From assembly GCF_003334305.1 (NCBI RefSeq), contig NZ_QOWS01000034.1: 35,359 nt of DNA. One strand, given 5' to 3'. Of this stretch, positions 125 through 21,456 are shown piece after piece. The notes beneath the pieces are model-generated. The model was given only the letters and a program-made list of their open reading frames with translations. It did no database searches and was not told the DNA's origin. Position 1 is the stretch's first letter; every line of letters starts with the position of its first letter. Origin of the DNA: Escherichia coli (GTDB lineage: Bacteria > Pseudomonadota > Gammaproteobacteria > Enterobacterales > Enterobacteriaceae). The translations under genes were made by a program, and so were the position numbers.

Positions 125-201
125 GGAGCGGTAGTTCAGTCGGTTAGAATACCTGCCTGTCACGCAGGGGGTCGCGGGTTCGAGTCCCGTCCGTTCCGCC
201 A
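125..201 (+). tRNA. aspU: tRNA-Asp (GUC anticodon)
   Basis: 77-nt sequence GGAGCGGTAGTTCAGTCGGTTAGAATACCTGCCTGTCACGCAGGGGGTCGCGGGTTCGAGTCCCGTCCGTTCCGCCA, with a GTC anticodon in the CTGTCAC loop. Lies just 3' of the 5S rRNA as in an rrn operon distal tRNA. Confidence 0.95.
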
Positions 202-7484: not shown

Positions 7485-8216
7485 ATGAGCACTGCAATTA
7501 CACGCCAGATCGTTCTCGATACCGAAACCACCGGTATGAACCAGATTGGTGCGCACTATGAAGGCCACAAGATCATTGAGATTGGTGCCGTTGAAGTGGT
7601 GAACCGTCGCCTGACGGGCAATAACTTCCATGTTTATCTCAAACCCGATCGGCTGGTGGATCCGGAAGCCTTTGGCGTACATGGTATTGCCGATGAATTT
7701 TTGCTCGATAAGCCCACGTTTGCCGAAGTAGCCGATGAGTTCATGGACTATATCCGCGGCGCGGAGTTGGTGATCCATAACGCAGCGTTCGATATCGGCT
7801 TTATGGACTACGAGTTTTCGTTGCTTAAGCGCGATATTCCGAAGACCAATACCTTCTGTAAGGTCACCGATAGCCTTGCGGTGGCGAGGAAAATGTTTCC
7901 TGGTAAGCGCAACAGCCTCGATGCGTTATGTGCCCGCTACGAAATAGATAACAGTAAACGAACGCTACACGGGGCATTACTCGATGCACAGATCCTTGCG
8001 GAAGTTTATCTGGCGATGACCGGTGGTCAAACGTCGATGGCTTTTGCGATGGAAGGAGAGACACAGCAGCAACAAGGTGAAGCAACAATTCAGCGCATTG
8101 TACGTCAGGCAAGTAAGTTACGCGTTGTTTTTGCGACAGATGAAGAGCTTGCAGCTCATGAAGCCCGTCTTGATCTGGTGGAGAAGAAGGGCGGAAGCTG
8201 CCTCTGGCGGGCATAA
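7485..8216 (+). CDS. dnaQ: DNA polymerase III epsilon subunit (3'-5' proofreading exonuclease)
   Basis: DEDDh exonuclease motifs ([14 protein letters not shown]). Start placed at the second in-frame ATG (MSTAITRQ); the ATG at 7476 is an alternative. Classic divergent rnhA-dnaQ arrangement. Confidence 0.9.
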
Positions 8217-8291
8217 ATACCTGTAAAAGGCGCTAAAAATAGCGGCTTGGGCGATTTTTGCAGCAAACGATTCAAAAGATGAGAAAAACCG

Positions 8292-8320
8292 TTGACGAAG
8301 GGTGAGGCAATCCGTAATAT
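8292..8320 (+). promoter_or_regulatory. Putative sigma70 promoter for tRNA-Asp (aspV)
   Basis: TTGACG (-35), 17-nt spacer, TAATAT (-10), then a GC-rich discriminator (TCGCCTCG) as in stringently controlled stable-RNA promoters, about 28 nt upstream of the tRNA. Confidence 0.45.
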
Positions 8321-8348
8321 TCGCCTCGTTCCCAACGGAACACAACGC

Positions 8349-8425
8349 GGAGCGGTAGTTCAGTCGGTTAGAATACCTGCCTGTCACGCAGGGGGTCGCG
8401 GGTTCGAGTCCCGTCCGTTCCGCCA
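8349..8425 (+). tRNA. aspV: tRNA-Asp (GUC anticodon)
   Basis: Sequence identical to the tRNA-Asp at 125..201. Stand-alone tRNA downstream of dnaQ, as for aspV in K-12. Confidence 0.95.
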
Positions 8426-8453
8426 AATTCACTCATGAAAATGAGTTCAGAGA

Positions 8454-8488
8454 ACCGCAAGATTTTTAATTTTGCGGTTTTTTTTGCA
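8454..8488 (+). terminator. Rho-independent terminator after aspV
   Basis: ACCGCAA-GATTTTTAATTT-TGCGGT hairpin followed by a run of about 9 T. Confidence 0.6.
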
Positions 8489-8755
8489 TTTAAATCCCGC
8501 TATTTCTTCGGTCTATGGTTTTGTTATGCTGTAAATGTGTTAATCACATATGGTAGACCATATCATTAATATTTAATCATACTATCGAATCATTCAATTT
8601 AAATATATTTGAATGTTATGATTTTCATTTTTCTATTGATTTAATGAATTTATATATACTGTTATTTTTGTTTGTTCTGATTCAAGTGGAGTATATAATT
8701 AAAAATCGTTAGCTAAACATTACCATGATTATGACAGGCGAGGGAGTGTCCAATT

Positions 8756-9541
8756 ATGAATTCAAAAAAGCTTTGTTGCATATGTGTGTTATTCTCGCTG
8801 CTTGCAGGATGTGCCTCTGAATCTTCTATTGATGAAAAGAAGAAAAAAGCTCAAGTCACACAAAGTAATATTAATAAAAACACTCCCCAGCAACTGACAG
8901 ACAAAGATTTATTCGGTAATGAAACCACTCTGGCCGTATCCGAAGAGGATATTCAAGCTGCGCTTGATGGAGATGAGTTCCGCGTTCCCCTTAATTCTCC
9001 TGTAATACTTGTTCAATCCGGCAACCGCGCACCGGAAACCATTATGCAGGAGGAGATGCGAAAATATTATACTGTTTCCACATTCTCTGGTATCCCGGAC
9101 AGGCAAAAGCCTCTGACTTGTAACAAAAACAAAGATAAAAATGAGAACGAGGATGTTGCCAGTGCTGAGAATATGAACTGGATGCAGGCACTGCGTTTTG
9201 TGGCTGCAAAAGGACATCAGAAAGCGATTATTGTTTACCAGGATACATTGCAGACAGGAAAATATGACTCTGCGCTGAAATCAACAGTATGGTCCGACTA
9301 TAAAAATGAAAAACTCACCGACGCTATCTCCCTGCGCTACCTGGTACGTTTCACGCTGGTGGATGTGGCAACAGGTGAGTGGGCTACCTGGTCGCCGGTG
9401 AATTATGAATATAAAGTGCTTCCACCATTGCCCGACAAGAATGAAGCCAGTACGACTGATATGACAGAGCAGCAAATCATGCAACTTAAGCAAAAGACCT
9501 ATAAAGCGATGGTAAAAGATTTGGTTAACCGCTATCAATAA
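8756..9541 (+). CDS. yafT: Uncharacterised lipoprotein (YafT-like)
   Basis: 261-aa ORF with a lipobox (LLAGCAS). Same size and position as K-12 yafT just after aspV. AT-rich. Confidence 0.7.
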
Positions 9542-9677
9542 TAAATTATATCTGCCGCCAGGAATTTCTGGCGGCAATAATACAAAATTCTTTGCATAAG
9601 AAATTTTTCTTGACAAAGACAGTGCAAGAAAGGACATGGAATCCGGAGTTAAAAACTGTTTGTTTTAGAATATTTAA

Positions 9678-10157
9678 TTATTTAACTGCTGAATCTTCCT
9701 TGCGAGAAATATATTCATTATTACATTTCATGCCATTTTTAATATAGATTGCTCCTGGGAAAATCCCCGTATTATTACCGCAGGGGTGATAATTAGCATT
9801 GACATATCCTGTGACAAAAGGAGCTATTAAAGGTGCTATTACGATAGCTATTAGTAAAAATATAAGAGTTAGCTGTATTGTTATGTCTGTGGCGAAATTG
9901 ACTACCTTCGTTTTTTTGATTAAGAATGATTTTATTATCGTAAGTAAAATTACATGAACATTTAAAAAGGAAAACGACATGAAACCAAAGCACAGAATCA
10001 ACATTCTCCAATCATAAAATATTTCCGTGGAGCATTTTATTATTGAATATAGAGGTTTAACTCCGGTAAAAAACAAAGAAGCATTGAATGCAGGGAAAAA
10101 TAATATGGCCATAAAAAACATCGAAAGAAACTCTTTTAATTTAACATGTAAACGCAT
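9678..10157 (-). CDS. ykfM: Small multi-pass inner-membrane protein (YkfM-like); candidate immunity protein
   Basis: 159-aa ORF with about three strongly hydrophobic segments. Starts 9 bp after the stop of the upstream glycine-zipper protein. Very AT-rich. Same size as K-12 ykfM. Confidence 0.6.
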   Translation of the reverse strand: MRLHVKLKEFLSMFFMAILFFPAFNASLFFTGVKPLYSIIKCSTEIFYDWRMLILCFGFMSFSFLNVHVILLTIIKSFLIKKTKVVNFATDITIQLTLIFLLIAIVIAPLIAPFVTGYVNANYHPCGNNTGIFPGAIYIKNGMKCNNEYISRKEDSAVK

Positions 10158-10166
10158 GGTTAATCC

Positions 10167-11096
10167 TCATATCACGGGTGGAGTGTTAAGAACATACATA
10201 AATGGAGTCATGTTTTCCCTTTTCCATTTATCAAGTTCCTGTTGCCGTTTTAGTCCATCTCTAATTGCATATTTTAATTTTTCTGATAAATGGCATTGAG
10301 CATCGATTTCATTTAAAACAACTGTACACACTATCCCTGTCAGTAAAATTGCTCCTCCGACAAGAATTACTGGAAAGCCAAAGCTAACACAGGCAAAAGA
10401 AGCCAGGCTTCCAATAGCGGTTGCAACACCACCGGCTATAACTGCTTTGGCCACATCCATTGAAAAATCGCCAAGAAAATTAACCAGATCTCGCTCTGAA
10501 CTCATAATAAATTCTATGGTTCTCCAGGCTACTGAAAACCAGATACAGAACTTAACTCCTTTTATTGATTCAGATAAAGCTCCTCGCCAGCCAATAGCGA
10601 GTTCCAGAACTTGAGGCGCTCGTGAAGAGAAAATATATTTACCGAGCTTTTCTAAAAGCCAGGGGCTGGATGTTGTGATTTTTATATATTTCTCTCCAAG
10701 TATTTCAAAGTAACTTGCTTTTGTATACTTTAAGGCATTAAGGTTAAATATAATTTTCCCATTGTCATCAAACTCAGTCATTAATTTACTCGCGTTAACT
10801 AACCAGGCGAGTGTATCTTTTATACCTGAAGGATGTGTAGTGATAAAATGAATGTAATCAAATGATGTTATTGGGCTGAGTATTTTTTTTGCAACATCAA
10901 GTGTCAAGAGAATAACATGATGAGTGTTCTGATGCCTTAACTCATCAATGAGTGGGACGTCGTTAAGATAAGGGTGCTGAGGTACTAGCTGGTTTATCGG
11001 CTGAGCCCCCCGAAGAATGTCACCCACATAATCAGCCCACTGTGCATTCTGTGTGTTGTTGTTATTCCTTAAACCAGCCATTTTATCTCTCCGCAA
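10167..11096 (-). CDS. Hypothetical protein with C-terminal glycine-zipper hydrophobic region; candidate Hcp-associated membrane-active T6SS effector
   Basis: 309-aa ORF (start may be the ATG at 11081, MAGLRNNN). Soluble N-terminal part followed by AVIAGGVATAIGSLASFACVSFGFPVILVGGAILLTGIVCTVV. Begins 28 bp after the hcp-like gene and is followed 9 bp later by the membrane protein. Confidence 0.5.
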   Translation of the reverse strand: MRRDKMAGLRNNNNTQNAQWADYVGDILRGAQPINQLVPQHPYLNDVPLIDELRHQNTHHVILLTLDVAKKILSPITSFDYIHFITTHPSGIKDTLAWLVNASKLMTEFDDNGKIIFNLNALKYTKASYFEILGEKYIKITTSSPWLLEKLGKYIFSSRAPQVLELAIGWRGALSESIKGVKFCIWFSVAWRTIEFIMSSERDLVNFLGDFSMDVAKAVIAGGVATAIGSLASFACVSFGFPVILVGGAILLTGIVCTVVLNEIDAQCHLSEKLKYAIRDGLKRQQELDKWKRENMTPFMYVLNTPPVI

Positions 11097-11124
11097 TAGT
11101 AATTTATTATGTTATTACAGTAAG

Positions 11125-11607
11125 TTACTGTACACGATCCTGCCATTTACTCATTGCATTCGTACCGGCTAACGTATGCTCCCAGGAAATATCTTCATAA
11201 ATAAAGGCAATTCTCTCCTGTGGTTCCAGTTCTTTTTCCAGGACAGCATGCGGTGTGACAAAATCAATACTTGATATTCGGGCTTTTGACAGATTTATTT
11301 TATAATAAGGCTGGTAAATACCCGCTTTACTGGTTCGGTAGAGTATAAATTCACATATTGCCATTTTTTCATTGTCACTAAGTGCTTTTGCCAGCAATGG
11401 TGAGGATTTATCAACCGGTTTGGTGATAATTAATTCATGATGATTGACATTTTGACTTCTTGAGATGGAATGCATTAACGCATAAACCATGATCTGATCT
11501 TTATGTTCTGGCTGCGCTTTGTTTCCGACAGAATCAAGCGTTGAGCAACCTGCTGAAATTAGCCCTTGTGTCTCTCCACTCAAAGATAAATAACTTATAT
11601 TTGCCAT
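11125..11607 (-). CDS. Hcp-family protein (second, orphan hcp outside the hcp-vgrG operon)
   Basis: 160-aa ORF. Shares several spaced motifs with the Hcp at 31693..32211: Y-S-GxTQG-I-AG, DSVGN, KPxDKSSPLL versus KPFIF...AVPLM, WEH near the C-terminus. Confidence 0.7.
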   Translation of the reverse strand: MANISYLSLSGETQGLISAGCSTLDSVGNKAQPEHKDQIMVYALMHSISRSQNVNHHELIITKPVDKSSPLLAKALSDNEKMAICEFILYRTSKAGIYQPYYKINLSKARISSIDFVTPHAVLEKELEPQERIAFIYEDISWEHTLAGTNAMSKWQDRVQ

Positions 11608-11630
11608 GATAATCTCCTTTAATTAAATAA

Positions 11631-12983
11631 TTATTTTTCGGCCGTGGTACCGGTTGCCGCCTCTGGCATGACGTTATTCTTCAGCAGCAGCCAGCGGCTT
11701 AACACGCCTTCGAGTCGCTCATTAATTTGTTTTTCCAGCGCATCTGTATTCTGCTTCTGCGCACGGGCATCATGGTACTGCGTCAACAGAGACTCAACGG
11801 GTGTTTCCTGCCCCAGTCCCCGCTCCGCCTGCCAGATGACATTTTTGATATAGGAAAGGGTTAGTCCCTCTTTCTCGCGCTGCATCACTAGATCTGCAAA
11901 AGCATGTAAGTCCTGGCGGGTCTGCAACCAGCCACGCAACTGCGGGCTACTCTGTGCGCGGGTTTTGAGTGCCTCATTCCATTGTGTCGAGGCCTGTTGC
12001 TGTTGCAGGCTTTCCGGCCAGCGACTGTCGGCAACACGCATCATCTGCATCCCGGTTTCCAGCGGCTGTACCGGGGAGGTATCAAGAAGTTGTTGCAGCC
12101 TGCGCTCATAGTTTTCGAGTTCAGGTGAGGCCATCCACACCGTTGCTGCGCCCTGAGCGGTGTCGTTAACCTGTAACAGTTGCTGCTGCACCGGATAGAC
12201 CTGCCACCACCACAATGCTGAGGCGACAGCCACTGAACAGGCGATCCCTGCGATAAACCCTCTTACCGTACTGCCTTGATTTATCACACTGGCCTGTGGG
12301 GGATTCTCTGTCAGACTGCGAACTTCCACTTTCATCTCAGGCAGGCCGGGCAGGGGAGGCACTACCGCTTCTGGTGTGGAAGATGCCTGTGTTTCCGGGG
12401 CATAAATCAGCGTTCTGACCGTGGTCTGTGCGGCGTTCTCAGTGTTACTCTTCAGCTGGGGTCCAAGCCGTTTACGCGTGTTCTGCATAAAATAGAGCAG
12501 ATTCTCCACGCGCGGAACGCGCTTCAGTTCCACCTGCTGGAGCTTATCGCAGATAAGCTGCAATGCCCGCTCTGTGCGGTAGATCAGTGGTAGGTCGGAT
12601 TCCGCAAAGGAGATTTGCTGACGCAGAATATTGCCGGTTCGGGAGTTAAACCAGTCCAGCATTTCAGTACGCGCCGGGCCGCCCTGCGGCCAGAACTTAT
12701 CCCAGTCGTGGCTTACCATTGCCGCCAGCAGTTCCGCACCTTCGCAGAATCCCGCCAGTCCCTGTGTCCGTGTCCGGGCAAGCGTATAGTAGGTGGCGGT
12801 GTGTAAATCCACACCGTTGGCTTTAAAAATCGCCAGCGCCAGCGACTCCACCAGTTTCCAGTTCAGCTCAGGCTGTGACGGGTGGCTGGCTTTGTTTATT
12901 TCCTCGCGGATGGCGCTGAATTCCGGCAGCCCGCGCGGGTCACTGCCGGTAACGATAGTTTGTGTCAGTACGTTACTATTCAT
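11631..12983 (-). CDS. T6SS accessory membrane protein with ImpA_N-like N-terminal domain (VasL-like)
   Basis: N-terminal region resembles the ImpA-N/TssA family. Central hydrophobic segment (FIAGIACSVAVASALWWW). Start trimmed to the ATG at 12981..12983, which has a GGAGG ribosome-binding site and sits 10 bp after the tssM stop; the track ORF over-extends into tssM. Confidence 0.55.
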   Translation of the reverse strand: MNSNVLTQTIVTGSDPRGLPEFSAIREEINKASHPSQPELNWKLVESLALAIFKANGVDLHTATYYTLARTRTQGLAGFCEGAELLAAMVSHDWDKFWPQGGPARTEMLDWFNSRTGNILRQQISFAESDLPLIYRTERALQLICDKLQQVELKRVPRVENLLYFMQNTRKRLGPQLKSNTENAAQTTVRTLIYAPETQASSTPEAVVPPLPGLPEMKVEVRSLTENPPQASVINQGSTVRGFIAGIACSVAVASALWWWQVYPVQQQLLQVNDTAQGAATVWMASPELENYERRLQQLLDTSPVQPLETGMQMMRVADSRWPESLQQQQASTQWNEALKTRAQSSPQLRGWLQTRQDLHAFADLVMQREKEGLTLSYIKNVIWQAERGLGQETPVESLLTQYHDARAQKQNTDALEKQINERLEGVLSRWLLLKNNVMPEAATGTTAEK

Positions 12984-12993
12984 CCCTGCCTCC

Positions 12994-15900
12994 TCAGTAC
13001 AGTGTGTCTGACAGACCAAACTGGCTGAACAACCCACCGCTGAACGGGTTATCTTCCGTGTCGGTATGCACACGGTAGGTCATCGCGCCACCGTCCACGC
13101 TAAAGCGCACGGTAAAGTTGCCATCCTGTACTCCGGTCAGTTGTCCGGCCCCGAACAGGCGGAACTGCGCCCACGGCCCGCTGAAGCTGATACTGCGCGG
13201 CGCGTTGCCGCTGGTGCCGATGAGCGTCAGCTTACTTTCGTTGCCTTCGCGCATGTTGTTAGGCCAGACCAGATGGGCGGTATAGTTACGGCCCTGGCTG
13301 TAATCGACTAACTGACCGTCAAGGTTCAGTACACTGCGGCGTTTATTGCCTGAAAGCGATACCGTTTCCACGGCAAAGGATGTTCCCAGACCGTTCTGTT
13401 TGCTGAAGAAGATGTCACGGATTTTCTGCGCAGTTTCCAGTTGCGCAATAATATCTTCGCGAATAATGACGTTGTTATCGCCATCCTCCAGACTCAGGTC
13501 ATTATCGATAAACAGCTTCAGGTTCTGCTGGTAGAAGGTATCCAGTATGCCATCCGGTTTAAAGAAGCGTTCGAAGGCATCCAGTGAGGCATCCTGTGCA
13601 GAACGCGGATTAAACGGATAGTTATTTGCCAGTTGCTCGTTAAACGGTTTCACCACGCTGTCGCGCCAGTCCACTTCCATATAATGAACAGCCTCCACCA
13701 TCACCACATGCCAGGCCTGGTCAGCCAGCCTGCCAACCCAGCGGTTGAGCGGAGCAGGCAGCGTTTTTGCCATCTGGCGGGTGGCGAATATCGGATCGCT
13801 GCTGTTCTGATCAAGCCGTAACTGCACGGCTTTCAGCGCCGATTTCCCTGGTACAGGCGCGTTCTGGATTGCCAGCAGGTAGCGGTGCAACTCGGTGAGT
13901 TGCTGATACACGGCCTGCATCGTGCTTTCTTTGTCTTTCTGTACTGCCAGGGTACTGTTTTCCGGGGCGAATTCATGCCCGAGGCGGGTGAGTAACTGGT
14001 AATCCGGCTCTGCCAGGGCTTCCTCCCGTTCTTTGGCAGAGAGTTTTTCAGAAAAGACGCCTGGCTGTGTGTTGTCACGCAGCACGGTCAGCGCCCGCTG
14101 CAAAGGCTGGTCGCCGCTGATAACCTGCTCCAGCGCCCCGGTCAGTTGTCCGATGGACTCAAAATTGCGGATATTCAGATTGTCCATCCCAGCCCGCCAG
14201 GTGGCGGTGTAGTCGCTGATATACTGCTCGGTCAACTGGTGCTGGATTTCCGCACGGTCGGCGTCACTGTATTTCACATTGCGGGTGAGGTTAAGTACCC
14301 AGGAATCCATCGCTGTCAGTTCAACCAGTTCATCGCGCTGTTTTACAAAATAGCTTTGCAGGCCGTAGCGGGTGATAAACTGTGGAACAACCAGTTTGTT
14401 GTCATCGGCAGATGTAAACACCTGGTCAAAGGTTGGCCCTACCTGGTCACGCAGATTGAGGTCGGCAGGAAGAACGCCCAGCGCCCGCGTTTTCAGGCTC
14501 TGGTAAACCCGCTGGTAGACAGGCAGTTTGCTCAGTTCTTTCTGTGCTGATACCACGGGCTTGTCATATGGCGTCCAGCGGCTGATGGCGTCACCGTCGC
14601 CCGCCTGACGCTCTGCATGCCAGTCAGTATGAGCCAGCGCGTAGTCAAGATGGGACATCAGTTGTGCCTGGATATCGCGCTGGCCGTGGAATTTTTCGCT
14701 CCAGCGTTTTGCCATATACTGCTTCACCACCTCATTGTTACGTCCGCTTTTGTCCTCCAGCATTCGCATTACGCGCAGCACCGCGAGTTTTTCTTCACTC
14801 TCCGGCGGCGCGGCGTTCATCGCTTTGACCAGCCCGTTAAACAGCGAGGGCAGGTAACGTTGCTCCAGCAGTTGCAGATAGGTCTGTTCCACATAAGGCC
14901 CGATACGTCGTCCCTGGTACAGTCCCATATCGGCCAGACGGCTGCGGTCGCCCCAGTCGCCATAGGCCAGTGTGGCATCGCGTACCGGGTTCAGGAGCGG
15001 CAGTTGCAGGTTGCCAAAGTCATCTTCCCCCTGCGGAGGCGGCACGTCCATAAAGGCTTTGGCCTGCTTAAGCACGGTGATGCCGGACTGATAGTTACCG
15101 TTGTAATAGTGATGCCAGCCGGTGATGAGCAGCAGTGCTGCCACGCCGCCTGTGGCAGAGAAAACCGTCAGGCGGCGACGGGAACGTATCAGCCAGGCGC
15201 GGCTCTCTGTTGCCAGATTAGGCTCTGCGAGTAATGCCTGCGGGAACAGGCTGCGGGTGAAATAAGGCGCGGTGTCCACCAGGGGCCAGGACGCCAGTGG
15301 GTTATTGCCCAGCCGGTACTGGCGGGCGGCAGACTGGGTGAATATATCATCCATCTGCCCACGCTGAAGCGAAGAGGTGAGATAGACACCACGCAGCATA
15401 ACGTTCATATTTTCGCCATCAAGCAGACCCTCAAGCAGTGACACCAGCGGTTCACGGCTTCCCTGCATCTGGCGGGAAAAACTGAATAAAGACGCGCGGG
15501 TGTGAGTCTGAGCGACCATCAGATCCGGCAACGCCAGATTCATTCGATCCACCCATGTCTGCCAGAAAGCATTCAACTCTGTTCGCCAGTCATCATTTTC
15601 ATGGGCACGGCGGGTGAACGTGACGCCCAGAATCGCATCGCGATCCTGTCTGTTGAGTGACTGGAACAGGGCGGCAAAACCCTGTAATAAATCAAGCCGG
15701 GTCAGTACCACGTAAACCGGTAACTGGCAGTGAAGATGCTGGCGTATATCCTGTAAGCGGCTGCGCAGCGTCTGTAACAGATGCTCGCGGCGGCGTTTGT
15801 CTGCGGTCAGCAGATCGGGTAAATCGAGTGTCAGAATAATCCCGTTCAGCGGCTGGCGCGCGCGCTTTTCTTTCAGCCAGCCGAGGGCATGTTCCCACAG

Positions 15901-16518
15901 ACGGCGATGCAGGATATCCGCATCAGCGGGAGCGCAGAGTGTGCCGTCGATATCAAAGATCACCGCCTGTTTACCGACATGGGGCGTGAGGTACAGGCGT
16001 TGTTCTGCGCCGCGTGCGCCCTCCGGGGCATAAATAATGTCGGACGGAAACCCCTCGCGCAGCAGTGTCGTTTTGCCACTGCCCGCCGGGCCGATGACCA
16101 TATACCACGGCAACTGCCACAGGAAACGGCGGTTGTCGAGATGGCGTTGCAGGCGCAGCAGCCAGCGGTCGAGGTAACGCTGCTGGGCGTTCAGTTCCAC
16201 ACTGAGCGGATCAATGGCTTCCTCGCGCTGTTGTTTTTGCTGTTTTTCAAGCTGTTGCAGGCGCTTCATTACCCGGACGGTAAGCCACACCAGGGCAATA
16301 ATCCCCCACGCCGCCGTTGCCAGCCAGCGGTTCGCCAGTGGTTTGAGCCACTGCTCTTCATACAGCGTCCACGTCGGGCCTTTCCACCAGATCCAAACCA
16401 GCAGGAAAATCCACGCCAGTATCAGCAGCCAGAATGCAGAGACTTTAAATCGGGGCATCGCCGGGCGCAGGGCTGATTTGAGTCCGCTGAATAGTCGGGG
16501 TGTTGGTAATCTGAACAC
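12994..16518 (-). CDS. tssM: T6SS membrane complex protein TssM (IcmF family)
   Basis: 1174-aa ORF with N-terminal transmembrane segments, a Walker A P-loop (GPAGSGKTTLL) and a long periplasmic C-terminal region. Position and size typical of IcmF/TssM. Confidence 0.9.
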   Translation of the reverse strand: MFRLPTPRLFSGLKSALRPAMPRFKVSAFWLLILAWIFLLVWIWWKGPTWTLYEEQWLKPLANRWLATAAWGIIALVWLTVRVMKRLQQLEKQQKQQREEAIDPLSVELNAQQRYLDRWLLRLQRHLDNRRFLWQLPWYMVIGPAGSGKTTLLREGFPSDIIYAPEGARGAEQRLYLTPHVGKQAVIFDIDGTLCAPADADILHRRLWEHALGWLKEKRARQPLNGIILTLDLPDLLTADKRRREHLLQTLRSRLQDIRQHLHCQLPVYVVLTRLDLLQGFAALFQSLNRQDRDAILGVTFTRRAHENDDWRTELNAFWQTWVDRMNLALPDLMVAQTHTRASLFSFSRQMQGSREPLVSLLEGLLDGENMNVMLRGVYLTSSLQRGQMDDIFTQSAARQYRLGNNPLASWPLVDTAPYFTRSLFPQALLAEPNLATESRAWLIRSRRRLTVFSATGGVAALLLITGWHHYYNGNYQSGITVLKQAKAFMDVPPPQGEDDFGNLQLPLLNPVRDATLAYGDWGDRSRLADMGLYQGRRIGPYVEQTYLQLLEQRYLPSLFNGLVKAMNAAPPESEEKLAVLRVMRMLEDKSGRNNEVVKQYMAKRWSEKFHGQRDIQAQLMSHLDYALAHTDWHAERQAGDGDAISRWTPYDKPVVSAQKELSKLPVYQRVYQSLKTRALGVLPADLNLRDQVGPTFDQVFTSADDNKLVVPQFITRYGLQSYFVKQRDELVELTAMDSWVLNLTRNVKYSDADRAEIQHQLTEQYISDYTATWRAGMDNLNIRNFESIGQLTGALEQVISGDQPLQRALTVLRDNTQPGVFSEKLSAKEREEALAEPDYQLLTRLGHEFAPENSTLAVQKDKESTMQAVYQQLTELHRYLLAIQNAPVPGKSALKAVQLRLDQNSSDPIFATRQMAKTLPAPLNRWVGRLADQAWHVVMVEAVHYMEVDWRDSVVKPFNEQLANNYPFNPRSAQDASLDAFERFFKPDGILDTFYQQNLKLFIDNDLSLEDGDNNVIIREDIIAQLETAQKIRDIFFSKQNGLGTSFAVETVSLSGNKRRSVLNLDGQLVDYSQGRNYTAHLVWPNNMREGNESKLTLIGTSGNAPRSISFSGPWAQFRLFGAGQLTGVQDGNFTVRFSVDGGAMTYRVHTDTEDNPFSGGLFSQFGLSDTLY

Positions 16519-16536: not shown

Positions 16537-17952
16537 TTATTGTTCTGCCGTGAATTTTTGTTCTAGCTGCTCAAGCAGGGACGGCTCCCAGTCTGCCACC
16601 ATCATCTGCAATCCCATCCTGAACAACATCCTGTACTGCTGTTGCGCAAGCTGTACCAGCCCCGCCTCTTCCATAAGCTGCGCGCCAAAATACTGCCGGT
16701 GGAACTGGTCGCGGGGTTCACCGGCGGGTAACGTATCCAGATACCGTAAGGCGGCTTCCAGCCCCTGCTCATCAAAACACAACCGCGCAGCCTGAATATC
16801 TTCATTACTCACCTGTATGACTGGCGCGGACTGGTTACCTGGCTGATTTGCAAGCCATTGCTTCGTTTTTTCAGAAACAAACGGTGTGTGGTCGTTAAAC
16901 AGAAGATCAGCGAGCGCGGGCAGACGGCCAAGAAAGGAAACGACTTCATCGCGGATGGCATCGGCTACAGCGGTATAACCAAGACGGTGCGCCGTCTGTG
17001 CAGAAATGTAGTGACCGTCCAGCCAGTAGGGTGCCAGCAGTACGCTTTTTTCCACCTGCTGCCACAGCTCCATATCCGCGCTGGCAAGCCGGGACTGGTA
17101 ATCCGCCACCATATCGGCAGAGACCGCAGCCAGTGGAGTACGTCTATCGCTTTCCGCCTGGGGCGTACTGGTGATGGTTAGCCACAGGGCATGGCGACGC
17201 AGGCGATAGCCCTGCGGCGATTCCGGTTGGCGCTCGCATAAAATGGCCGCCACTTTTAACAGTGTGTCGCGCCAGGTTTTGTCGTCGTGACTGTCGATGG
17301 CGATCTGTGGAGTCGGAGTACTGGTATGCGTCACGCCGCTTTCAGACGTGGCGATCGTCTGTGGTGAACTACTGGAGGCCGCCGGAGTGGGGGCTGGAGC
17401 CGGTGCCGCACGATTAAACGCACGCTGGTAAAGGGCAAAAAGATCATCAGTAGCCTGTGCTAGTTCCGGGGCATTATGTGACTGCCAGCATTGCGCCAGT
17501 TTCGCCAGTTCACCTAGCAGCGCATCGCGCTGCGCTGTGGCGGCGTTCTGTGAAAAAGCGTCAATACCTGTTTCGAAGCGTTTAATAACCTGGCTGGCAA
17601 AGCGTTTTTTATGTGCCATATTCTGCGGCGCGGCTACCGCCCAGTAATGCTCCACATACAGCGCCAGCAGGCGCAAGGCCAGGAGCGGATCACCGGCATG
17701 TTGCAGGGTTCTCAGCAGATGCGCCAGCAGGCGAAAATCCTTACTCTCCGAAGCCAGAAGGACCAGTCCCCGGTGCTGGAGTTCAGGGATATCCAGCTGG
17801 CTGTGCGCCAGCGATCCCAGTTTGACAATCCCACCGTCGATATACTCCCAGTCCGGGTTGTCGTCCTTCAGCGCCGATGCCAGTTTCTCTTCCGGCAGGT
17901 TTTCCAGCAGGTGCGATACCCAGACATTCGGATCGCGTAAGTCCATTGCCAT
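16537..17952 (-). CDS. tssA: T6SS protein TssA (ImpA family)
   Basis: About 470-aa product. Size, soluble character and position next to tssM fit TssA. Start placed at the ATG at 17950..17952, just after the stop of the upstream gene; the ATG at 17946 is an alternative. Confidence 0.7.
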   Translation of the reverse strand: MAMDLRDPNVWVSHLLENLPEEKLASALKDDNPDWEYIDGGIVKLGSLAHSQLDIPELQHRGLVLLASESKDFRLLAHLLRTLQHAGDPLLALRLLALYVEHYWAVAAPQNMAHKKRFASQVIKRFETGIDAFSQNAATAQRDALLGELAKLAQCWQSHNAPELAQATDDLFALYQRAFNRAAPAPAPTPAASSSSPQTIATSESGVTHTSTPTPQIAIDSHDDKTWRDTLLKVAAILCERQPESPQGYRLRRHALWLTITSTPQAESDRRTPLAAVSADMVADYQSRLASADMELWQQVEKSVLLAPYWLDGHYISAQTAHRLGYTAVADAIRDEVVSFLGRLPALADLLFNDHTPFVSEKTKQWLANQPGNQSAPVIQVSNEDIQAARLCFDEQGLEAALRYLDTLPAGEPRDQFHRQYFGAQLMEEAGLVQLAQQQYRMLFRMGLQMMVADWEPSLLEQLEQKFTAEQ

Positions 17953-17956
17953 ATTT

Positions 17957-18700
17957 TTATTCTCCCGCCCAGTGGCAGGCATCGCGCAGGGGAGCAATCG
18001 CCCTTGCCAGCCCGTCAATGTTAAAGGTCAGCTTTCCGGCGGCGTTGTCTGCGCCGGTATCCACCATCAGCGTTTTTGCGCCGAACAGTTGCTTAATTTC
18101 ATCAATCCCGGACAGCCCCCGGCTGGATTCCAGCAGAGTGCCGTTCTCGCGCACAAACCAGTGGCTGCGCAATGCCCGGCTGTCGGCATTCAGGGTGACG
18201 GCGATATCATGAACATCCAGAGGGTGCATCAGCGCCACCTGCATCCGGGTGATATTGTCCACGCAACTGAACATCAGCACCGGGCGCGGCGGAACATGGC
18301 CGATAGCCGGGGTGGTTATCACCACCGTCGGGCGTTCCCCCGGCACCTGCGTCACCAGCAGCTCTGTGGTGTTGCCCTGGCGGCGTTTTTCCTGCTCCGT
18401 AGCGCGGGTCCAGGCTTCGCCCACAAAGCTGGCTTTGACCAGTGCCCCGTTAAATCCTGACGGGGACAGTGGTGCCAGCAGGCGGTCGTAACAGTCAAGC
18501 CGCTCCAGCGCCGCCGTCTCCTGCCGACAGGACTGCATGGCATGTAACGTGGCAGTCGCATCCGGCGGGGTCGCAGTGGCGACGGCTACCTCCACACCGG
18601 CCAGTGACGATGTTTCTGCGGGCGCGGCACTGGCGGGTAAGCCCGCCACCAGGCCTGCGATAAACCATCCTGTCTGCCGGAAAACGCGCAACCTGCTCAT
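17957..18700 (-). CDS. T6SS-associated exported protein (VasI/TagO-like)
   Basis: 247-aa ORF with an N-terminal signal-peptide-like segment (GWFIAGLVAGLPASAAPA). Start overlaps the clpV stop by 4 bp. Family assignment is from memory and tentative. Confidence 0.5.
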   Translation of the reverse strand: MSRLRVFRQTGWFIAGLVAGLPASAAPAETSSLAGVEVAVATATPPDATATLHAMQSCRQETAALERLDCYDRLLAPLSPSGFNGALVKASFVGEAWTRATEQEKRRQGNTTELLVTQVPGERPTVVITTPAIGHVPPRPVLMFSCVDNITRMQVALMHPLDVHDIAVTLNADSRALRSHWFVRENGTLLESSRGLSGIDEIKQLFGAKTLMVDTGADNAAGKLTFNIDGLARAIAPLRDACHWAGE

Positions 18701-21456
18701 AAATCCGTTTCATCCTCTGTGACAGACTCGTCGTCCAGAGCATCTTCCACGTCTGCCGTGAACGCGCCGTCTGCCGCCGACAGGCGGATGCGGGCAATCG
18801 CCGTGTTGGCCGCCATTTTCTGCAACAGCAGCAGCGAGAGCGGGGGCAGCATGTCGCCGTCAATGACGGACTCCAGCATCCTTGCGCCGTTTTCCGCGCG
18901 GGTGACGCGGCTCATGATCTCGTCCGTCACTTCCGACTCAATAATCACGTCCGCATCAAAGCGGCTGCGCAGCACGTTATCCAGGCGGGCCAGTTTCCCG
19001 TCGATAATGGTGGTGAGCGTCTCTTTCGACAGAGGCAGGTACGGCACCACTTCCATACGCGCCAGCAGGGCTGGTTTAAAGAAGTCCGCCAGCACCGGAT
19101 ACAGCACTTCCTGCATGGTTTCCGGGTCATCCGCGTGTTCAACAATCACCTGGTAACCAAGGTTGGAGGTGAGGAAGAAAACGATATTCTTACAGTCAAT
19201 CAGTCGGCCTTCGCCGTCTGCCATCTCGCCCTTGTCGAACGCCTGGTAGAACAGGTTGAGGACATCCGGGTGCGCTTTTTCCACTTCATCAAGCAGCACC
19301 ACCGAGTACGGTTTCTGGCGAATCGCTTCGGTCAGTACGCCGCCTTCGCCATAGCCGACATAGCCCGGAGGGGAGCCAATCAGCCGCGAGACGGTGTGTT
19401 TTTCCTGGAACTCGGACATATTGATGGTGGTCAGGTACTGGCGACCGCCGTAGAGCAGTTCTGCCAGTTGCAGGACGGTTTCGGTTTTACCCACGCCGCT
19501 GGGACCGGCCAGCAGAAACGCGCCGAGTGGGCGTCCCGGACGACGCAGGTCGGCGCGTGCAGTCAGCAGGTGTTTATGCAGGCTGGCAATCGCCAGGTCC
19601 TGGCCTTTGATGGTGTCACCCAGCCATACCGGCAGGTCGGTGATGACCGACATCTCATTCTGTGACAGGCGGTTAAGCGGTACGCCGGTCCATTCGGCAA
19701 TCACCGCCGCAATCTGTTTTTTATCGACGTGCGGGGAGACCAGCAACCGGTCGTTATGCAGGGCGTCCAGTTCGGCAGTGAGCTGTGCCAGTCGCTGCAC
19801 CGGGGAAACTGTTTCTGCGGTCTCTTCCGGCTGTTCGCTGCCAGCTTCATCAGCCAGTTTAGCACCGGTATTATCCTGTTCTGACTCTGGCTGCGTATCC
19901 TCCACGGTATCTGCGTCCGGCAACGGCGCCGCATCGTCCTCTGCCACGCCCAGTAACTGCTGGCGCAGCGCAATAATCTCCCGGACCAGCGTCTGCTGCT
20001 GGTGCCAGGCCGCTTCCAGTTCATCCAGCGCCGTCAGCGTTTCATCATACTGCACCAGCACCTCGGTCATCCGTGATGTGTCGGTACGCAGTCCGATGCG
20101 AAGCTCGCGCTCAAGCTGGCGAATTTCCGCCTCCTGCTGGTGGCTCAGAGTGGTCAGCGCCGAGATTTGCTTCGGCGGCGACGACAGGTTGATGGCCACA
20201 CGGGCGCAGGCGGTATCCAGCACATCAATCGCTTTGTCCGGTAACTGACGCCCGGAGAGATAACGCTCGCTTAATGTCGCAGCGGCCTGCAAGGCGTCAT
20301 CATCAATCAGCACGCCGTGAGACTGTTCATAGACCGCCGACAGACCGCGCAGAATAATGGTGGCTTCGGCAGCGTTGGGTTCGCTGACCTTCACCAACTG
20401 GAAGCGGCGCGACAGGGCGGCATCTTTTTCGAAGTATTTTTTGTACTCGCTCCAGGTGGTGGCGGCGATGGTTTTCAGCTCGCCGCGCGCCAGCGCCGGT
20501 TTGAGCAGGTTGGAGATATCCAGCCCGCCCTGCTGGTTGCCCGCGCCAATCAGGGTATGTGCTTCGTCGATAAACAGAATGACCGGCACCGGGGAGGAAA
20601 TGACCTCCGCCATCAGCCCTTTGAAACGTTTTTCGAATTCACCCTTCACCGACGCTCCGGCCTGCAATGCGCCCAAGTCAAGGGTCATGATATCGGTGTT
20701 TTTCAGCTTGTCCGGCACATGGCCTGCCACGATGCGCAGCGCCAGCCCTTCGATTAAGGCGCTTTTACCCACGCCTGCTTCGCCCACCACCACCGGGTTG
20801 TTCTTGCGGCGGCGGCAGAGAATGTCGATCATCAGGTCGATTTCGTGGTCGCGGCACAGTACCGGGTCAAGCCTGCCGTTACGGGCGTCTGCGGTCATGT
20901 TTTTGGCGTAGCGGGCAAGCAGGGTGTCAGCAGCGTCCGTCAGTGTGCCTGCGCCTTTACCGTCTGCATCCGGCACGACTGATTCCGCCGACTCCTGTGT
21001 CCATTGCACAAAGTCCTGTTGCAGACGGTCACGGTTAATGCCGGTCAACAGCCGGGCGGCAGCAGGCGGTATATAACGCAGCGGCGAATGCAGCAGGGCC
21101 AGCAGCAACACGCCGCCACGCAATTCGCTGTGCTGCATCTCAGCCGACGCCAGCAGCCAGCCCTCTTTCAGCCACTCAACCAGCATCGGGGAAAATGCCG
21201 GGTAGCTGTCCGCAGAACGGGCAGTTGTGTAGTTCTCCACCGTCAGCGCCTGGCGCAACTCTTCCATGCCAATATCGCCCTGGCGGGTAATAACCCGCAG
21301 GTCACTGCGTGGCATGGCGAGCATCTGAATAAGCACATGGCTGACGGTAATTTCCGCTGCCTGCTGGCTCATACATTCAGAGGCGGCCATCTCCAGCGCC
21401 TGGCGGGAGAACAGGTTAAGCCGTTTTACCAGCGTGGGAAGATCAATCTGGATCAT
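18697..21456 (-). CDS. clpV: T6SS AAA+ ATPase ClpV (TssH)
   Basis: Two AAA+ modules with Walker A motifs (GEAGVGKSA and GPSGVGKTE) and a ClpB-like middle region. Start trimmed to the ATG at 21454..21456 (MIQIDLPTLV), which has an AAGGA ribosome-binding site; the track ORF is over-extended. Confidence 0.9.
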   Translation of the reverse strand: MIQIDLPTLVKRLNLFSRQALEMAASECMSQQAAEITVSHVLIQMLAMPRSDLRVITRQGDIGMEELRQALTVENYTTARSADSYPAFSPMLVEWLKEGWLLASAEMQHSELRGGVLLLALLHSPLRYIPPAAARLLTGINRDRLQQDFVQWTQESAESVVPDADGKGAGTLTDAADTLLARYAKNMTADARNGRLDPVLCRDHEIDLMIDILCRRRKNNPVVVGEAGVGKSALIEGLALRIVAGHVPDKLKNTDIMTLDLGALQAGASVKGEFEKRFKGLMAEVISSPVPVILFIDEAHTLIGAGNQQGGLDISNLLKPALARGELKTIAATTWSEYKKYFEKDAALSRRFQLVKVSEPNAAEATIILRGLSAVYEQSHGVLIDDDALQAAATLSERYLSGRQLPDKAIDVLDTACARVAINLSSPPKQISALTTLSHQQEAEIRQLERELRIGLRTDTSRMTEVLVQYDETLTALDELEAAWHQQQTLVREIIALRQQLLGVAEDDAAPLPDADTVEDTQPESEQDNTGAKLADEAGSEQPEETAETVSPVQRLAQLTAELDALHNDRLLVSPHVDKKQIAAVIAEWTGVPLNRLSQNEMSVITDLPVWLGDTIKGQDLAIASLHKHLLTARADLRRPGRPLGAFLLAGPSGVGKTETVLQLAELLYGGRQYLTTINMSEFQEKHTVSRLIGSPPGYVGYGEGGVLTEAIRQKPYSVVLLDEVEKAHPDVLNLFYQAFDKGEMADGEGRLIDCKNIVFFLTSNLGYQVIVEHADDPETMQEVLYPVLADFFKPALLARMEVVPYLPLSKETLTTIIDGKLARLDNVLRSRFDADVIIESEVTDEIMSRVTRAENGARMLESVIDGDMLPPLSLLLLQKMAANTAIARIRLSAADGAFTADVEDALDDESVTEDETDL

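What the first reader, a model, noticed from the sequence alone, without database searches (positions are those of the whole stretch)
17957..18700. Exported Ala/Thr-rich protein of unknown role encoded between tssA and clpV
This 247-aa protein has a signal-peptide-like N-terminus and an Ala/Thr/Pro-rich linker (VEVAVATATPPDATAT), and its start overlaps the clpV stop. That implies an envelope-located component co-expressed with the cytoplasmic machinery. Proteins of this kind in T6SS loci have no well-defined function.
Basis: inference. Interest (0 to 1): 0.33.

Follow-up and report, generated by a model that had tools for sequence, protein, structure and literature searches.

The report
Known T6SS accessory protein VasI (TagO)
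This gene is an ordinary copy of vasI (also called tagO), a named and already annotated exported accessory protein of the Vibrio-cholerae-type type VI secretion system, found in about half of complete E. coli genomes; its molecular role is still unsolved.

Summary
A 247-aa ORF lies at 17957-18700 (-) between clpV/tssH and tssA. Its ATG overlaps the clpV stop (ATGA), it has a Sec-type signal-like N-terminus, and an Ala/Thr/Pro spacer follows. It is not an uncharacterised oddity. It scores 262.7 bits against the NCBIfam equivalog TIGR03360 "VasI" (cut-off 124.2) and 7.5e-54 against Pfam PF11319. It is 100% identical to RefSeq-annotated vasI of E. coli O104:H4, and 2837 of 5426 complete E. coli genomes hold a match. 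The locus is E. coli T6SS-2, next to tRNA-Asp.

In 78 diverse homologues the family hallmarks are a signal-like N-terminus, four invariant cysteines and a conserved C-terminal domain. The A/T/P spacer is lineage-specific.

Published V. cholerae data show VasI is dispensable for Hcp/VgrG secretion but needed for killing. It is present at about 1000 copies per cell, like TssJ/L/M, and is not depleted as secreted parts are.

My best reading is a non-secreted periplasmic partner of the envelope complex. Already known; low interest.

The parts
17957..18700 (-). vasI (tagO) coding sequence, 247 aa plus stop
   Evidence: ORF. TIGR03360 VasI equivalog, 262.7 bits against a cut-off of 124.2, residues 54-244. 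Pfam PF11319 VasI, 7.5e-54, residues 58-244. 100% identical to RefSeq vasI WP_000088873.1.
18626..18700 (-). Residues 1-25: predicted Sec (type I) signal peptide, MSRLRVFRQTGWFIAGLVAGLPASA, with probable cleavage after ASA
   Evidence: Three Arg, a hydrophobic core and an AXA motif. A comparable segment is present in 72-77 of 78 homologues. Heuristic only; SignalP was not available.
18536..18625 (-). Residues 26-55: low-complexity Ala/Thr/Pro spacer (contains VEVAVATATPPDATAT at 18548-18595)
   Evidence: 30% Ala, 17% Thr, 10% Pro. AlphaFold2 pLDDT is 53-61 over residues 1-40, rising to 78 for 41-50; the first helix starts at residue 48. Spacer length in the family is 6-38 residues, and the E. 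coli spacer is the longest seen. dN/dS is 0.4-0.7, from few changes.
18377..18535 (-). Residues 56-108: helical N-domain with the invariant motif C58-x11-C70 (C..ERLxCYD), R67 and D72, followed by a variable loop (82-88)
   Evidence: C58, R67, C70 and D72 are invariant in 78/78, and the C-C spacing is 11 in 77/78. Helices at 48-58, 64-75 and 95-105; pLDDT is below 50 for residues 82-88.
17960..18376 (-). Residues 109-247: conserved beta-sandwich domain (IalB-like fold) with invariant C146, W181, G195, C242 and W244
18697..18700 (-). ATGA overlap of the clpV/tssH stop and the vasI start (translational coupling)
   Evidence: Sequence. The same 4-nt overlap with the upstream gene occurs in other E. 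coli alleles and in distant loci L002 and L007.
18697..21456 (-). clpV/tssH, the upstream gene of the same operon
   Evidence: RefSeq annotation of the identical locus; ORF.
16537..17952 (-). tssA (ImpA_N + VasJ type), the downstream gene, starting 4 nt after the vasI stop
   Evidence: RefSeq annotation. vasI lies directly upstream of an ImpA_N+T6SS_VasJ gene in three of the four distant loci examined (not L009).

Best explanation
The ORF is the E. coli T6SS-2 copy of vasI (synonyms tagO, aec28, VC_A0118 family).

Shown:
- It meets the curated family models.
- It is translationally coupled to clpV upstream and abuts tssA downstream, in the conserved order tssJ-tssK-tssL-clpV-(vasH)-vasI-tssA-tssM-vasL.
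- It is under purifying selection.

Inferred from sequence and model: the protein is made with a cleavable Sec signal peptide and acts outside the cytoplasm, as a soluble periplasmic protein tethered by nothing but a flexible, lineage-specific Ala/Thr/Pro spacer. The mature part is a short helical hairpin, probably stapled by C58-C70, packed on an IalB/MotY-N-like beta-sandwich. C146-C242 probably ties the C-terminus to that sandwich.

Inferred from published work on the V. cholerae orthologue: it is not itself fired out. It stays in the cell at roughly the copy number of TssJ/TssL/TssM. It is not needed to expel Hcp/VgrG into the medium, but it is needed for firing to be productive against amoebae and, in part, bacteria.

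Most likely mechanism (about 0.35 on its own): VasI docks on the periplasmic part of the TssJ-TssM envelope complex, or between that complex and the cell wall or outer membrane. There it stabilises or positions the complex so that the spike crosses the producer's envelope with enough force or correct geometry to penetrate a target. Identity as VasI is about 0.98; extracytoplasmic location is about 0.85.
For: Family identity: TIGR03360 at 262.7 bits against a cut-off of 124.2; PF11319 at 7.5e-54; 100% identical to annotated vasI, and a match in 2837/5426 complete E. coli genomes; AFDB neighbours are all named TagO, VasI, Aec28 or VC_A0118 family.

Export: the n/h/c-region anatomy; signal-like N-termini in 72-77 of 78 homologues; four Cys invariant in 78/78; lipobox-like variants in a few members; earlier predictions of export for VCA0118.

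Operon and synteny: the ATGA overlap; the same gene order and overlap in distant loci.

Not secreted, and stoichiometric with the membrane complex: V. cholerae VasI is at about 1000-1200 copies per cell, against TssJ about 1500, TssL about 1100-1300 and TssM about 2100. It falls by less than 15% 90 min after a translation block, whereas Hcp and the VgrGs decline.

Phenotype: delta-VCA0118 secretes Hcp and VgrG-1 normally, yet is avirulent to Dictyostelium and attenuated in killing E. coli.

The loci that carry vasI have a short, DotU-only TssL and no annotated peptidoglycan-binding accessory gene.
Against: - No localisation, interaction or deletion data exist for the E. coli protein.
- SignalP could not be run.
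- The disulfide pairing and the fold are predictions.
- Fold similarity to IalB carries no functional information, because IalB's own mechanism is unknown.
- The identity of chain 8z5n_A as MotY is my inference from its length and description.
- The V. cholerae data concern a distant orthologue, and complementation there was only partial and not shown. An effect on the coupled downstream tssA is therefore not fully excluded.
- No contact with TssJ or TssM has been shown by anyone, and the tools here give no inter-chain prediction.
- E. coli T6SS-2 is reported as partly degenerate in some lineages.
Confidence: 0.55

Rival explanations
1. VasI is a T6SS-delivered effector, or a surface adhesin, that acts on the target cell. 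This was the original suggestion for VCA0118.
For: delta-VCA0118 keeps Hcp/VgrG-1 secretion but loses amoeba killing, and shows reduced actin cross-linking and reduced E. coli killing. The authors proposed an effector or adhesin.
Against: - T6SS cargo is loaded in the cytoplasm and normally lacks a Sec signal, whereas VasI has one across the family, plus four invariant Cys.
- The gene sits inside the structural operon, between clpV/vasH and tssA, not next to vgrG, PAAR, adaptor or immunity genes.
- No toxin or enzyme domain was found.
- Cellular VasI is not depleted after a translation block, unlike Hcp and the VgrGs.
- The C-terminal domain is under strong purifying selection (dN/dS 0.05), with no sign of an arms race.
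Confidence: 0.08
2. VasI is the cell-wall or outer-membrane anchoring or remodelling factor of this T6SS subtype. On this reading it stands in for the peptidoglycan-binding modules (TagL, TagN, TagP, TssL-OmpA) that these loci lack. This is a more specific version of the main explanation.
For: - TssL in the VasI-containing loci is short and DotU-only, and no OmpA/PG-binding gene is annotated in the locus.
- The second-best fold match is a chain of the Vibrio flagellar LPHT ring, probably MotY, whose N-domain builds a periplasmic ring next to the P ring.
- An IalB-domain protein (RgsG) is a periplasmic partner of cell-wall growth and Tol-Pal machinery in Sinorhizobium.
Against: - VasI has no recognisable PG-binding domain (OmpA, LysM, SPOR).
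- In MotY the PG-binding part is the C-domain, not the N-domain that VasI resembles (established knowledge; one search separates the two domains).
- The co-occurrence rests on only four loci.
- Hcp secretion is normal without VasI, whereas loss of PG anchoring abolishes function in the EAEC Sci-1 system (my recollection of the TagL work, not checked here).
Confidence: 0.15
3. VasI is a periplasmic protective, chaperone or sensing factor. Examples would be shielding the producer's envelope from its own firing or from periplasm-acting effectors, or relaying an envelope signal. It would not be a structural partner of TssJLM.
For: It has a periplasmic location, a binding-type beta-sandwich with no catalytic motif, and an accessory distribution restricted to one T6SS subtype. 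The killing defect without a secretion defect could reflect reduced fitness or a reduced firing rate on surfaces.
Against: - Immunity proteins travel with their effector genes and vary between strains. VasI keeps a fixed position in the structural operon across distant taxa, whatever effector genes follow.
- Its copy number tracks the membrane complex.
- No sensor or signalling domain is present.
Confidence: 0.12
4. The N-terminal 55 residues are not translated (true start at Met55), so there is no signal peptide and the protein is cytoplasmic.
For: The Shine-Dalgarno match before ATG 18700 is weak (GAGGA, 12 nt upstream). Residues 1-55 are the least conserved part.
Against: - The ATGA overlap with the upstream stop is conserved in distant loci.
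- The reading frame over residues 1-55 is open, indel-free and conservatively substituted in all E. coli alleles compared.
- Almost all homologues have a hydrophobic N-terminus before the first invariant Cys.
- Four invariant Cys fit an oxidising compartment.
- RefSeq uses the same start.
Confidence: 0.02

Closest known systems
VasI / VCA0118 of Vibrio cholerae (TIGR03360, PF11319; synonyms TagO, Aec28, EvfG, XmtE)
   Same: Same curated family, above the equivalog cut-off. Same operon position, directly upstream of a VasJ-type tssA. Same signal-like N-terminus, four invariant Cys and C-terminal domain.
   Different: In E. coli the gene follows clpV directly, because the sigma-54 activator vasH that lies between them in Vibrio-like loci is absent. 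The E. coli protein carries an unusually long Ala/Thr/Pro spacer. No phenotype has been measured for the E. coli copy.
IalB (invasion-associated locus B) of Bartonella, PDB 3dtd, Pfam IalB
   Different: No detectable sequence relationship: 9-13% identity, no Pfam IalB hit, and no PDB hit even with the family profile. IalB has no T6SS context and lacks the N-terminal Cys-x11-Cys helical hairpin.
MotY N-terminal domain in the T ring of the Vibrio polar flagellar motor (PDB 8z5n)
   Different: That chain A is MotY is my inference. MotY also has a C-terminal OmpA-like domain, which VasI lacks. There is no sequence similarity, and no evidence that VasI oligomerises.
Other T6SS envelope accessory proteins (TagL, TagN, TagP, and the TssJ lipoprotein)
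   Same: Extracytoplasmic proteins encoded in T6SS clusters that act on or around the TssJLM complex.
   Different: VasI has no OmpA/PG-binding domain and, in E. coli, no lipobox. It is dispensable for Hcp release in V. cholerae, unlike TssJ.

Membership tests
VasI / TagO (NCBIfam TIGR03360, Pfam PF11319) | Full-length match to the curated family HMM above its trusted cut-off | tested here: met
   TIGR03360 at 262.7 bits against a cut-off of 124.2, profile positions 1-187 of 187. PF11319 at 7.5e-54, positions 2-184 of 184.
VasI / TagO (NCBIfam TIGR03360, Pfam PF11319) | Four invariant cysteines, including the C-x11-C motif (C..RLxC[FY]D), plus the invariant R, D, W, G and W positions | tested here: met
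   C58, R67, C70, D72, C146, W181, G195, C242 and W244 are invariant in the 78-sequence alignment, and the query has all of them.
VasI / TagO (NCBIfam TIGR03360, Pfam PF11319) | N-terminal export signal | tested here: met
   Heuristic n/h/c-region analysis of the query and of 78 homologues. SignalP was not available, so this falls short of a dedicated predictor or an experiment.
VasI / TagO (NCBIfam TIGR03360, Pfam PF11319) | Encoded inside a T6SS structural operon, after clpV or vasH and directly before a VasJ-type tssA and tssM | tested here: met
   Window and RefSeq annotation. Distant loci L002, L007 and L008 show the same order. L009 is a partial exception: vasI follows the activator but is followed by PAAR.
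VasI / TagO (NCBIfam TIGR03360, Pfam PF11319) | Phenotype of the type member: dispensable for Hcp/VgrG secretion but required for full killing | not testable with these tools
   Known only for V. cholerae VCA0118.
IalB family (Pfam IalB; PDB 3dtd) | Sequence match to the IalB profile | tested here: not met
   The Pfam scan returned only VasI at E<=10. phmmer and the family profile against PDB sequences found nothing at E<=1 and E<=10 respectively.
IalB family (Pfam IalB; PDB 3dtd) | IalB-type beta-sandwich fold | tested here: met
T6SS cargo effector | No Sec signal; gene linked to vgrG, PAAR, hcp, an adaptor or an immunity gene; toxic or enzymatic domain | tested here: not met
   A signal-like N-terminus is present. 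The gene lies between clpV and tssA. No enzymatic domain was found.
Bacterial lipoprotein (TssJ-like anchoring) | Lipobox [LVI][ASTVI][GAS]C at the end of the signal peptide | tested here: not met
   There is no Cys before residue 58 in the query. A few distant homologues (for example P0135 and P0147) do have a lipobox.

The most novel reading that the evidence does not exclude
VasI, through its IalB/MotY-N-like beta-sandwich, assembles into a periplasmic collar around the TssJ-TssM channel of Vibrio-type T6SSs. This would be analogous to the MotY T ring around the flagellar P ring. The collar would decide whether a firing event merely sheds Hcp into the medium or delivers the spike with enough force and alignment to breach a target cell. 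That would explain the long-standing 'secretes but does not kill' phenotype of delta-VCA0118, and would assign a first function to the IalB fold.
Probability: 0.15. Interest if true: 0.5.

Novelty: already known. Interest (0 to 1): 0.12.

Why it matters
For genome annotation it does not matter: the gene is already correctly named in RefSeq and is common. The residual value is that VasI/TagO is one of the few conserved T6SS-cluster proteins still without a mechanism. It also has a curious published phenotype, in which secretion is intact but killing is lost. The features assembled here are export, two probable disulfides, an IalB/MotY-N-like sandwich, a copy number like the membrane complex, and strong purifying selection on the sandwich with a free-running spacer. 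Together they argue against the original 'effector' idea, and they point to concrete periplasmic interaction experiments with TssJ/TssM.

Tried and rejected
1. Sequence search of all PDB chains with the protein, and with the 78-sequence family profile, found no hit even at E<=1 and E<=10 respectively. Only fold comparison was informative.

2. Literature searches for VasI, VCA0118, DUF3121 and TagO found genome descriptions, one systematic mutagenesis, one proteomics data set and an early in-silico study. None was a mechanistic study. The first search was polluted by word-start matches such as the author name Vasil.

3. A PADLOC scan of several neighbours failed on a coordinate error. I did not repeat it because it is irrelevant to the question.

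4. I considered a fused-chain AlphaFold run of VasI with TssJ or the TssM C-terminal domain. I rejected it because the tool reports no inter-chain error or contact output, so an interface could not be judged.

5. I considered a genome-wide locus scan to quantify co-occurrence with PG-binding modules. I did not run it, because the cost was not justified for a known family. Four distant loci were inspected instead.

6. Rfam found nothing in or near the gene, only the two tRNA-Asp genes.

7. The long antisense ORF 17822-18460 (+) was set aside as a shadow of a GC-rich gene. The selection pattern and the homologues support the minus-strand frame.

Full report
**What is in the sequence**

The window carries a 247-codon ORF at 17957-18700 on the minus strand. 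Its ATG (18700-18698) overlaps the TGA of the upstream 919-aa clpV/tssH gene in the sequence ATGA. Its stop is followed 4 nt later by the ATG of tssA (MAMDLRD..., 17952), with a GGAG inside the 3' end of the ORF.

The N-terminus is MSRLRVFRQTGWFIAGLVAGLPASA|APAE. It has three arginines, a 12-13-residue hydrophobic core and an Ala-Ser-Ala motif, which is the anatomy of a Sec type I signal peptide. No cysteine that could make a lipobox is present.

The protein as a whole is only moderately Ala-rich (13.8%), and it lies in the most GC-rich kilobase of the window (62.4%).

The one correction is that 'Ala/Thr-rich' describes a spacer, not the protein.

**What it is**

The protein matches the NCBIfam equivalog TIGR03360, 'type VI secretion system-associated protein VasI'. 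The match covers the whole profile at 262.7 bits, against a curated cut-off of 124.2. It also matches Pfam PF11319 (VasI, EvfG, VC_A0118) at 7.5e-54.

The DNA is 100% identical to genes annotated vasI in many RefSeq E. coli genomes, including O104:H4. A match is present in 2837 of 5426 complete E. coli genomes.

The annotated O104:H4 locus shows this gene order: Rhs, VgrG, Hcp / tssB, a small ORF, tssC, tssE, tssF, tssG, tagH, tssJ, tssK, tssL(DotU), tssH, vasI, tssA, tssM, a VasL-domain protein, Hcp. The locus ends next to yafT and tRNA-Asp.

The O157:H7 locus, which the literature calls E. coli T6SS-2, is the same locus at 94% identity.

AlphaFold-database neighbours of the model are all named TagO, VasI, Aec28, XmtE or 'VC_A0118 family', so these are synonyms for one family. 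The gene is therefore already known and already annotated.

**Family anatomy**

A full scan of 1.84 billion representative proteins found 313 clusters at E<=1e-3. In an alignment of 78 full-length members that are 23-94% identical to the query:

- C58, R67, C70, D72, C146, W181, G195, C242 and W244 are invariant.
- The first two cysteines are spaced by exactly 11 residues in 77 of 78 members.
- 72 of 78 members have a strongly hydrophobic N-terminal segment (77 at a laxer threshold), and 66 have a positively charged n-region.
- A few members carry a lipobox instead.
- The stretch between the signal-like segment and the first invariant Cys varies from 6 to 38 residues. The E. coli spacer is the longest seen.

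Within E. coli, substitutions concentrate in residues 1-108, while residues 109-247 are almost invariant. dN/dS is about 0.2 overall, 0.05 in the C-terminal domain and 0.4-1.0 in the signal peptide and spacer, the last from few changes.

The hallmarks of the family are the export signal, the four cysteines and the C-terminal domain.

**Structure**

AlphaFold2 on the 78-sequence alignment gave a mean pLDDT of 85.2.

- Residues 1-47 have no predicted secondary structure. pLDDT is 53-61 over 1-40 and 78 for 41-50.
- Helices lie at 48-58, 64-75 and 95-105, with a low-confidence loop at 82-88.
- A nine-stranded beta-sandwich spans 115-227, followed by short C-terminal helices, at pLDDT 89-98.

The positions of the cysteines suggest a C58-C70 staple across the helical hairpin and a C146-C242 link between a core strand and the C-terminus.

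There is no sequence-level relationship. Pfam reports only VasI, and neither the protein nor the family profile hits any PDB sequence.

The 270-residue 8z5n chain is most likely MotY. That is my inference from its length and description. According to the paper describing that structure, the MotY N-domain packs head-to-tail in the periplasmic T ring and wedges against the P ring.

IalB's own mechanism is unknown. An IalB-domain protein in Sinorhizobium is a periplasmic partner of the polar-growth and Tol-Pal machinery.

**Context elsewhere**

Four distant homologues (about 30-35% identical) were traced to their contigs.

- Three lie in the order tssJ-tssK-tssL(DotU only)-clpV-vasH-vasI-tssA(ImpA_N+VasJ)-tssM-(VasL)-PAAR/VgrG, or on a fragment of that order. 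There too, the vasI start overlaps the stop of the upstream gene.
- The fourth is a rearranged locus in which vasI still follows the sigma-54 activator.

An early phyletic-profile study likewise found that VCA0118, VCA0119 (VasJ-type TssA), VCA0121 (VasL) and VCA0122 are confined to the same subset of T6SS-positive organisms.

The E. coli locus differs in having no vasH, so vasI is coupled directly to clpV.

**What is known experimentally (V. cholerae orthologue)**

An in-frame delta-VCA0118 mutant expresses and secretes Hcp and VgrG-1 at wild-type levels. [quoted passage not shown] The authors suggested an effector or adhesin, and noted that complementation was partial.

Targeted proteomics measured about 1000-1200 VasI copies per cell, the same range as TssJ, TssL and TssM.

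A 2019 review states that TagO's function is unknown. I found no later functional study in the held library.

**Most likely mechanism and rivals**

The following points speak against a fired effector:

- a Sec signal, which T6SS cargo lacks;
- invariant cysteines;
- a fixed place in the structural operon rather than near vgrG, PAAR or immunity genes;
- strong purifying selection on the folded domain;
- a copy number like the membrane complex;
- no depletion during firing.

They speak for a resident periplasmic accessory component.

My best reading is that VasI binds the periplasmic part of the TssJ-TssM complex or its surroundings, and makes firing productive. This would work through stabilisation, positioning or easing passage through the wall and outer membrane, without being required for tube expulsion as such. 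I put about 0.35 on that specific mechanism, about 0.85 on an extracytoplasmic location and about 0.98 on the family assignment.

A narrower variant is that VasI replaces the peptidoglycan-anchoring modules that these loci lack. That is possible, but it is unsupported by any PG-binding signature.

A protective or sensing role in the periplasm cannot be excluded.

A downstream start at Met55 is very unlikely.

**Verdict**

This is a correct observation of an ordinary, already annotated gene.

Novelty: already known. Interest: low. The only forward-looking element is the structural lead (an IalB/MotY-N-like sandwich plus a disulfide-stapled hairpin), which makes the open question of VasI function testable by periplasmic interaction experiments.

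Noticed in passing
window 16537-17952 (-), tssA: tssA is far more divergent between E. coli strains than its neighbours. Against strain SC480 (L006), tssL is 100% and tssM 98.9% identical in protein, but tssA is only 87.2% (87.6% nt). Against strain N64 (L004), tssA is 74.9% and tssM 77.9%. This suggests a recombination mosaic or fast evolution centred on tssA and the 5' half of vasI.
   Followed up: partly
L005 4487-9469 (E. coli O157:H7 PNUSAE145590): In O157:H7 both tssA and tssM are annotated as frameshifted pseudogenes, while vasI, clpV and tssL are intact. This fits the published idea that EHEC T6SS-2 is degenerating.
   Followed up: no
window 30237-30461 (-): A 74-aa ORF lies between tssB and tssC. 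It is annotated only as 'hypothetical protein' in RefSeq (WP_000123970.1 in O104:H4), and its role is unknown.
   Followed up: no
window 125-201 and 8349-8425 (+); 8001-12000: There are two identical tRNA-Asp(GTC) genes, and the T6SS island ends next to the second one. GC content is 51-62% across the T6SS genes and drops to 37-44% in the 9-12 kb stretch that holds ykfM, a hypothetical gene and the second hcp. This pattern is typical of a horizontally acquired island with a separately acquired tail.
   Followed up: partly
window 18697-21456 / 17957-18700; loci L007 8463-10004, L008 8463-10001: The E. coli locus has no sigma-54 activator gene (vasH) between clpV and vasI, whereas distant VasI loci do. 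Regulation of E. coli T6SS-2 must therefore differ from that of the Vibrio-type parent system.
   Followed up: no
window 12994-16518 (-), tssM: The mechanical ORF starts at GTG 16518 (1174 aa). The RefSeq tssM of the O104:H4 locus is 3435 nt, which maps to a start at window 16428, and in this window that codon reads CTG. The true tssM start is uncertain.
   Followed up: no
window 17822-18460 (+): A 212-aa ORF lies antisense to vasI, among several long antisense ORFs across clpV and tssM. It is most likely a shadow ORF of GC-rich coding DNA, since the selection pattern and the homologues support the minus-strand frame.
   Followed up: partly
proteins P0135, P0147 (distant VasI homologues); hit H29 NZ_LR134082.1: Some VasI homologues carry a classical lipobox (LSAC, LSGC) and so are probably lipid-anchored. 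Annotation names are inconsistent, with the same family appearing as 'TagO' or 'VasI'. In strain NCTC9038 the match covers only clpV-vasI and is followed by VasL and Rhs genes, which suggests a deletion of tssA-tssM.
   Followed up: no
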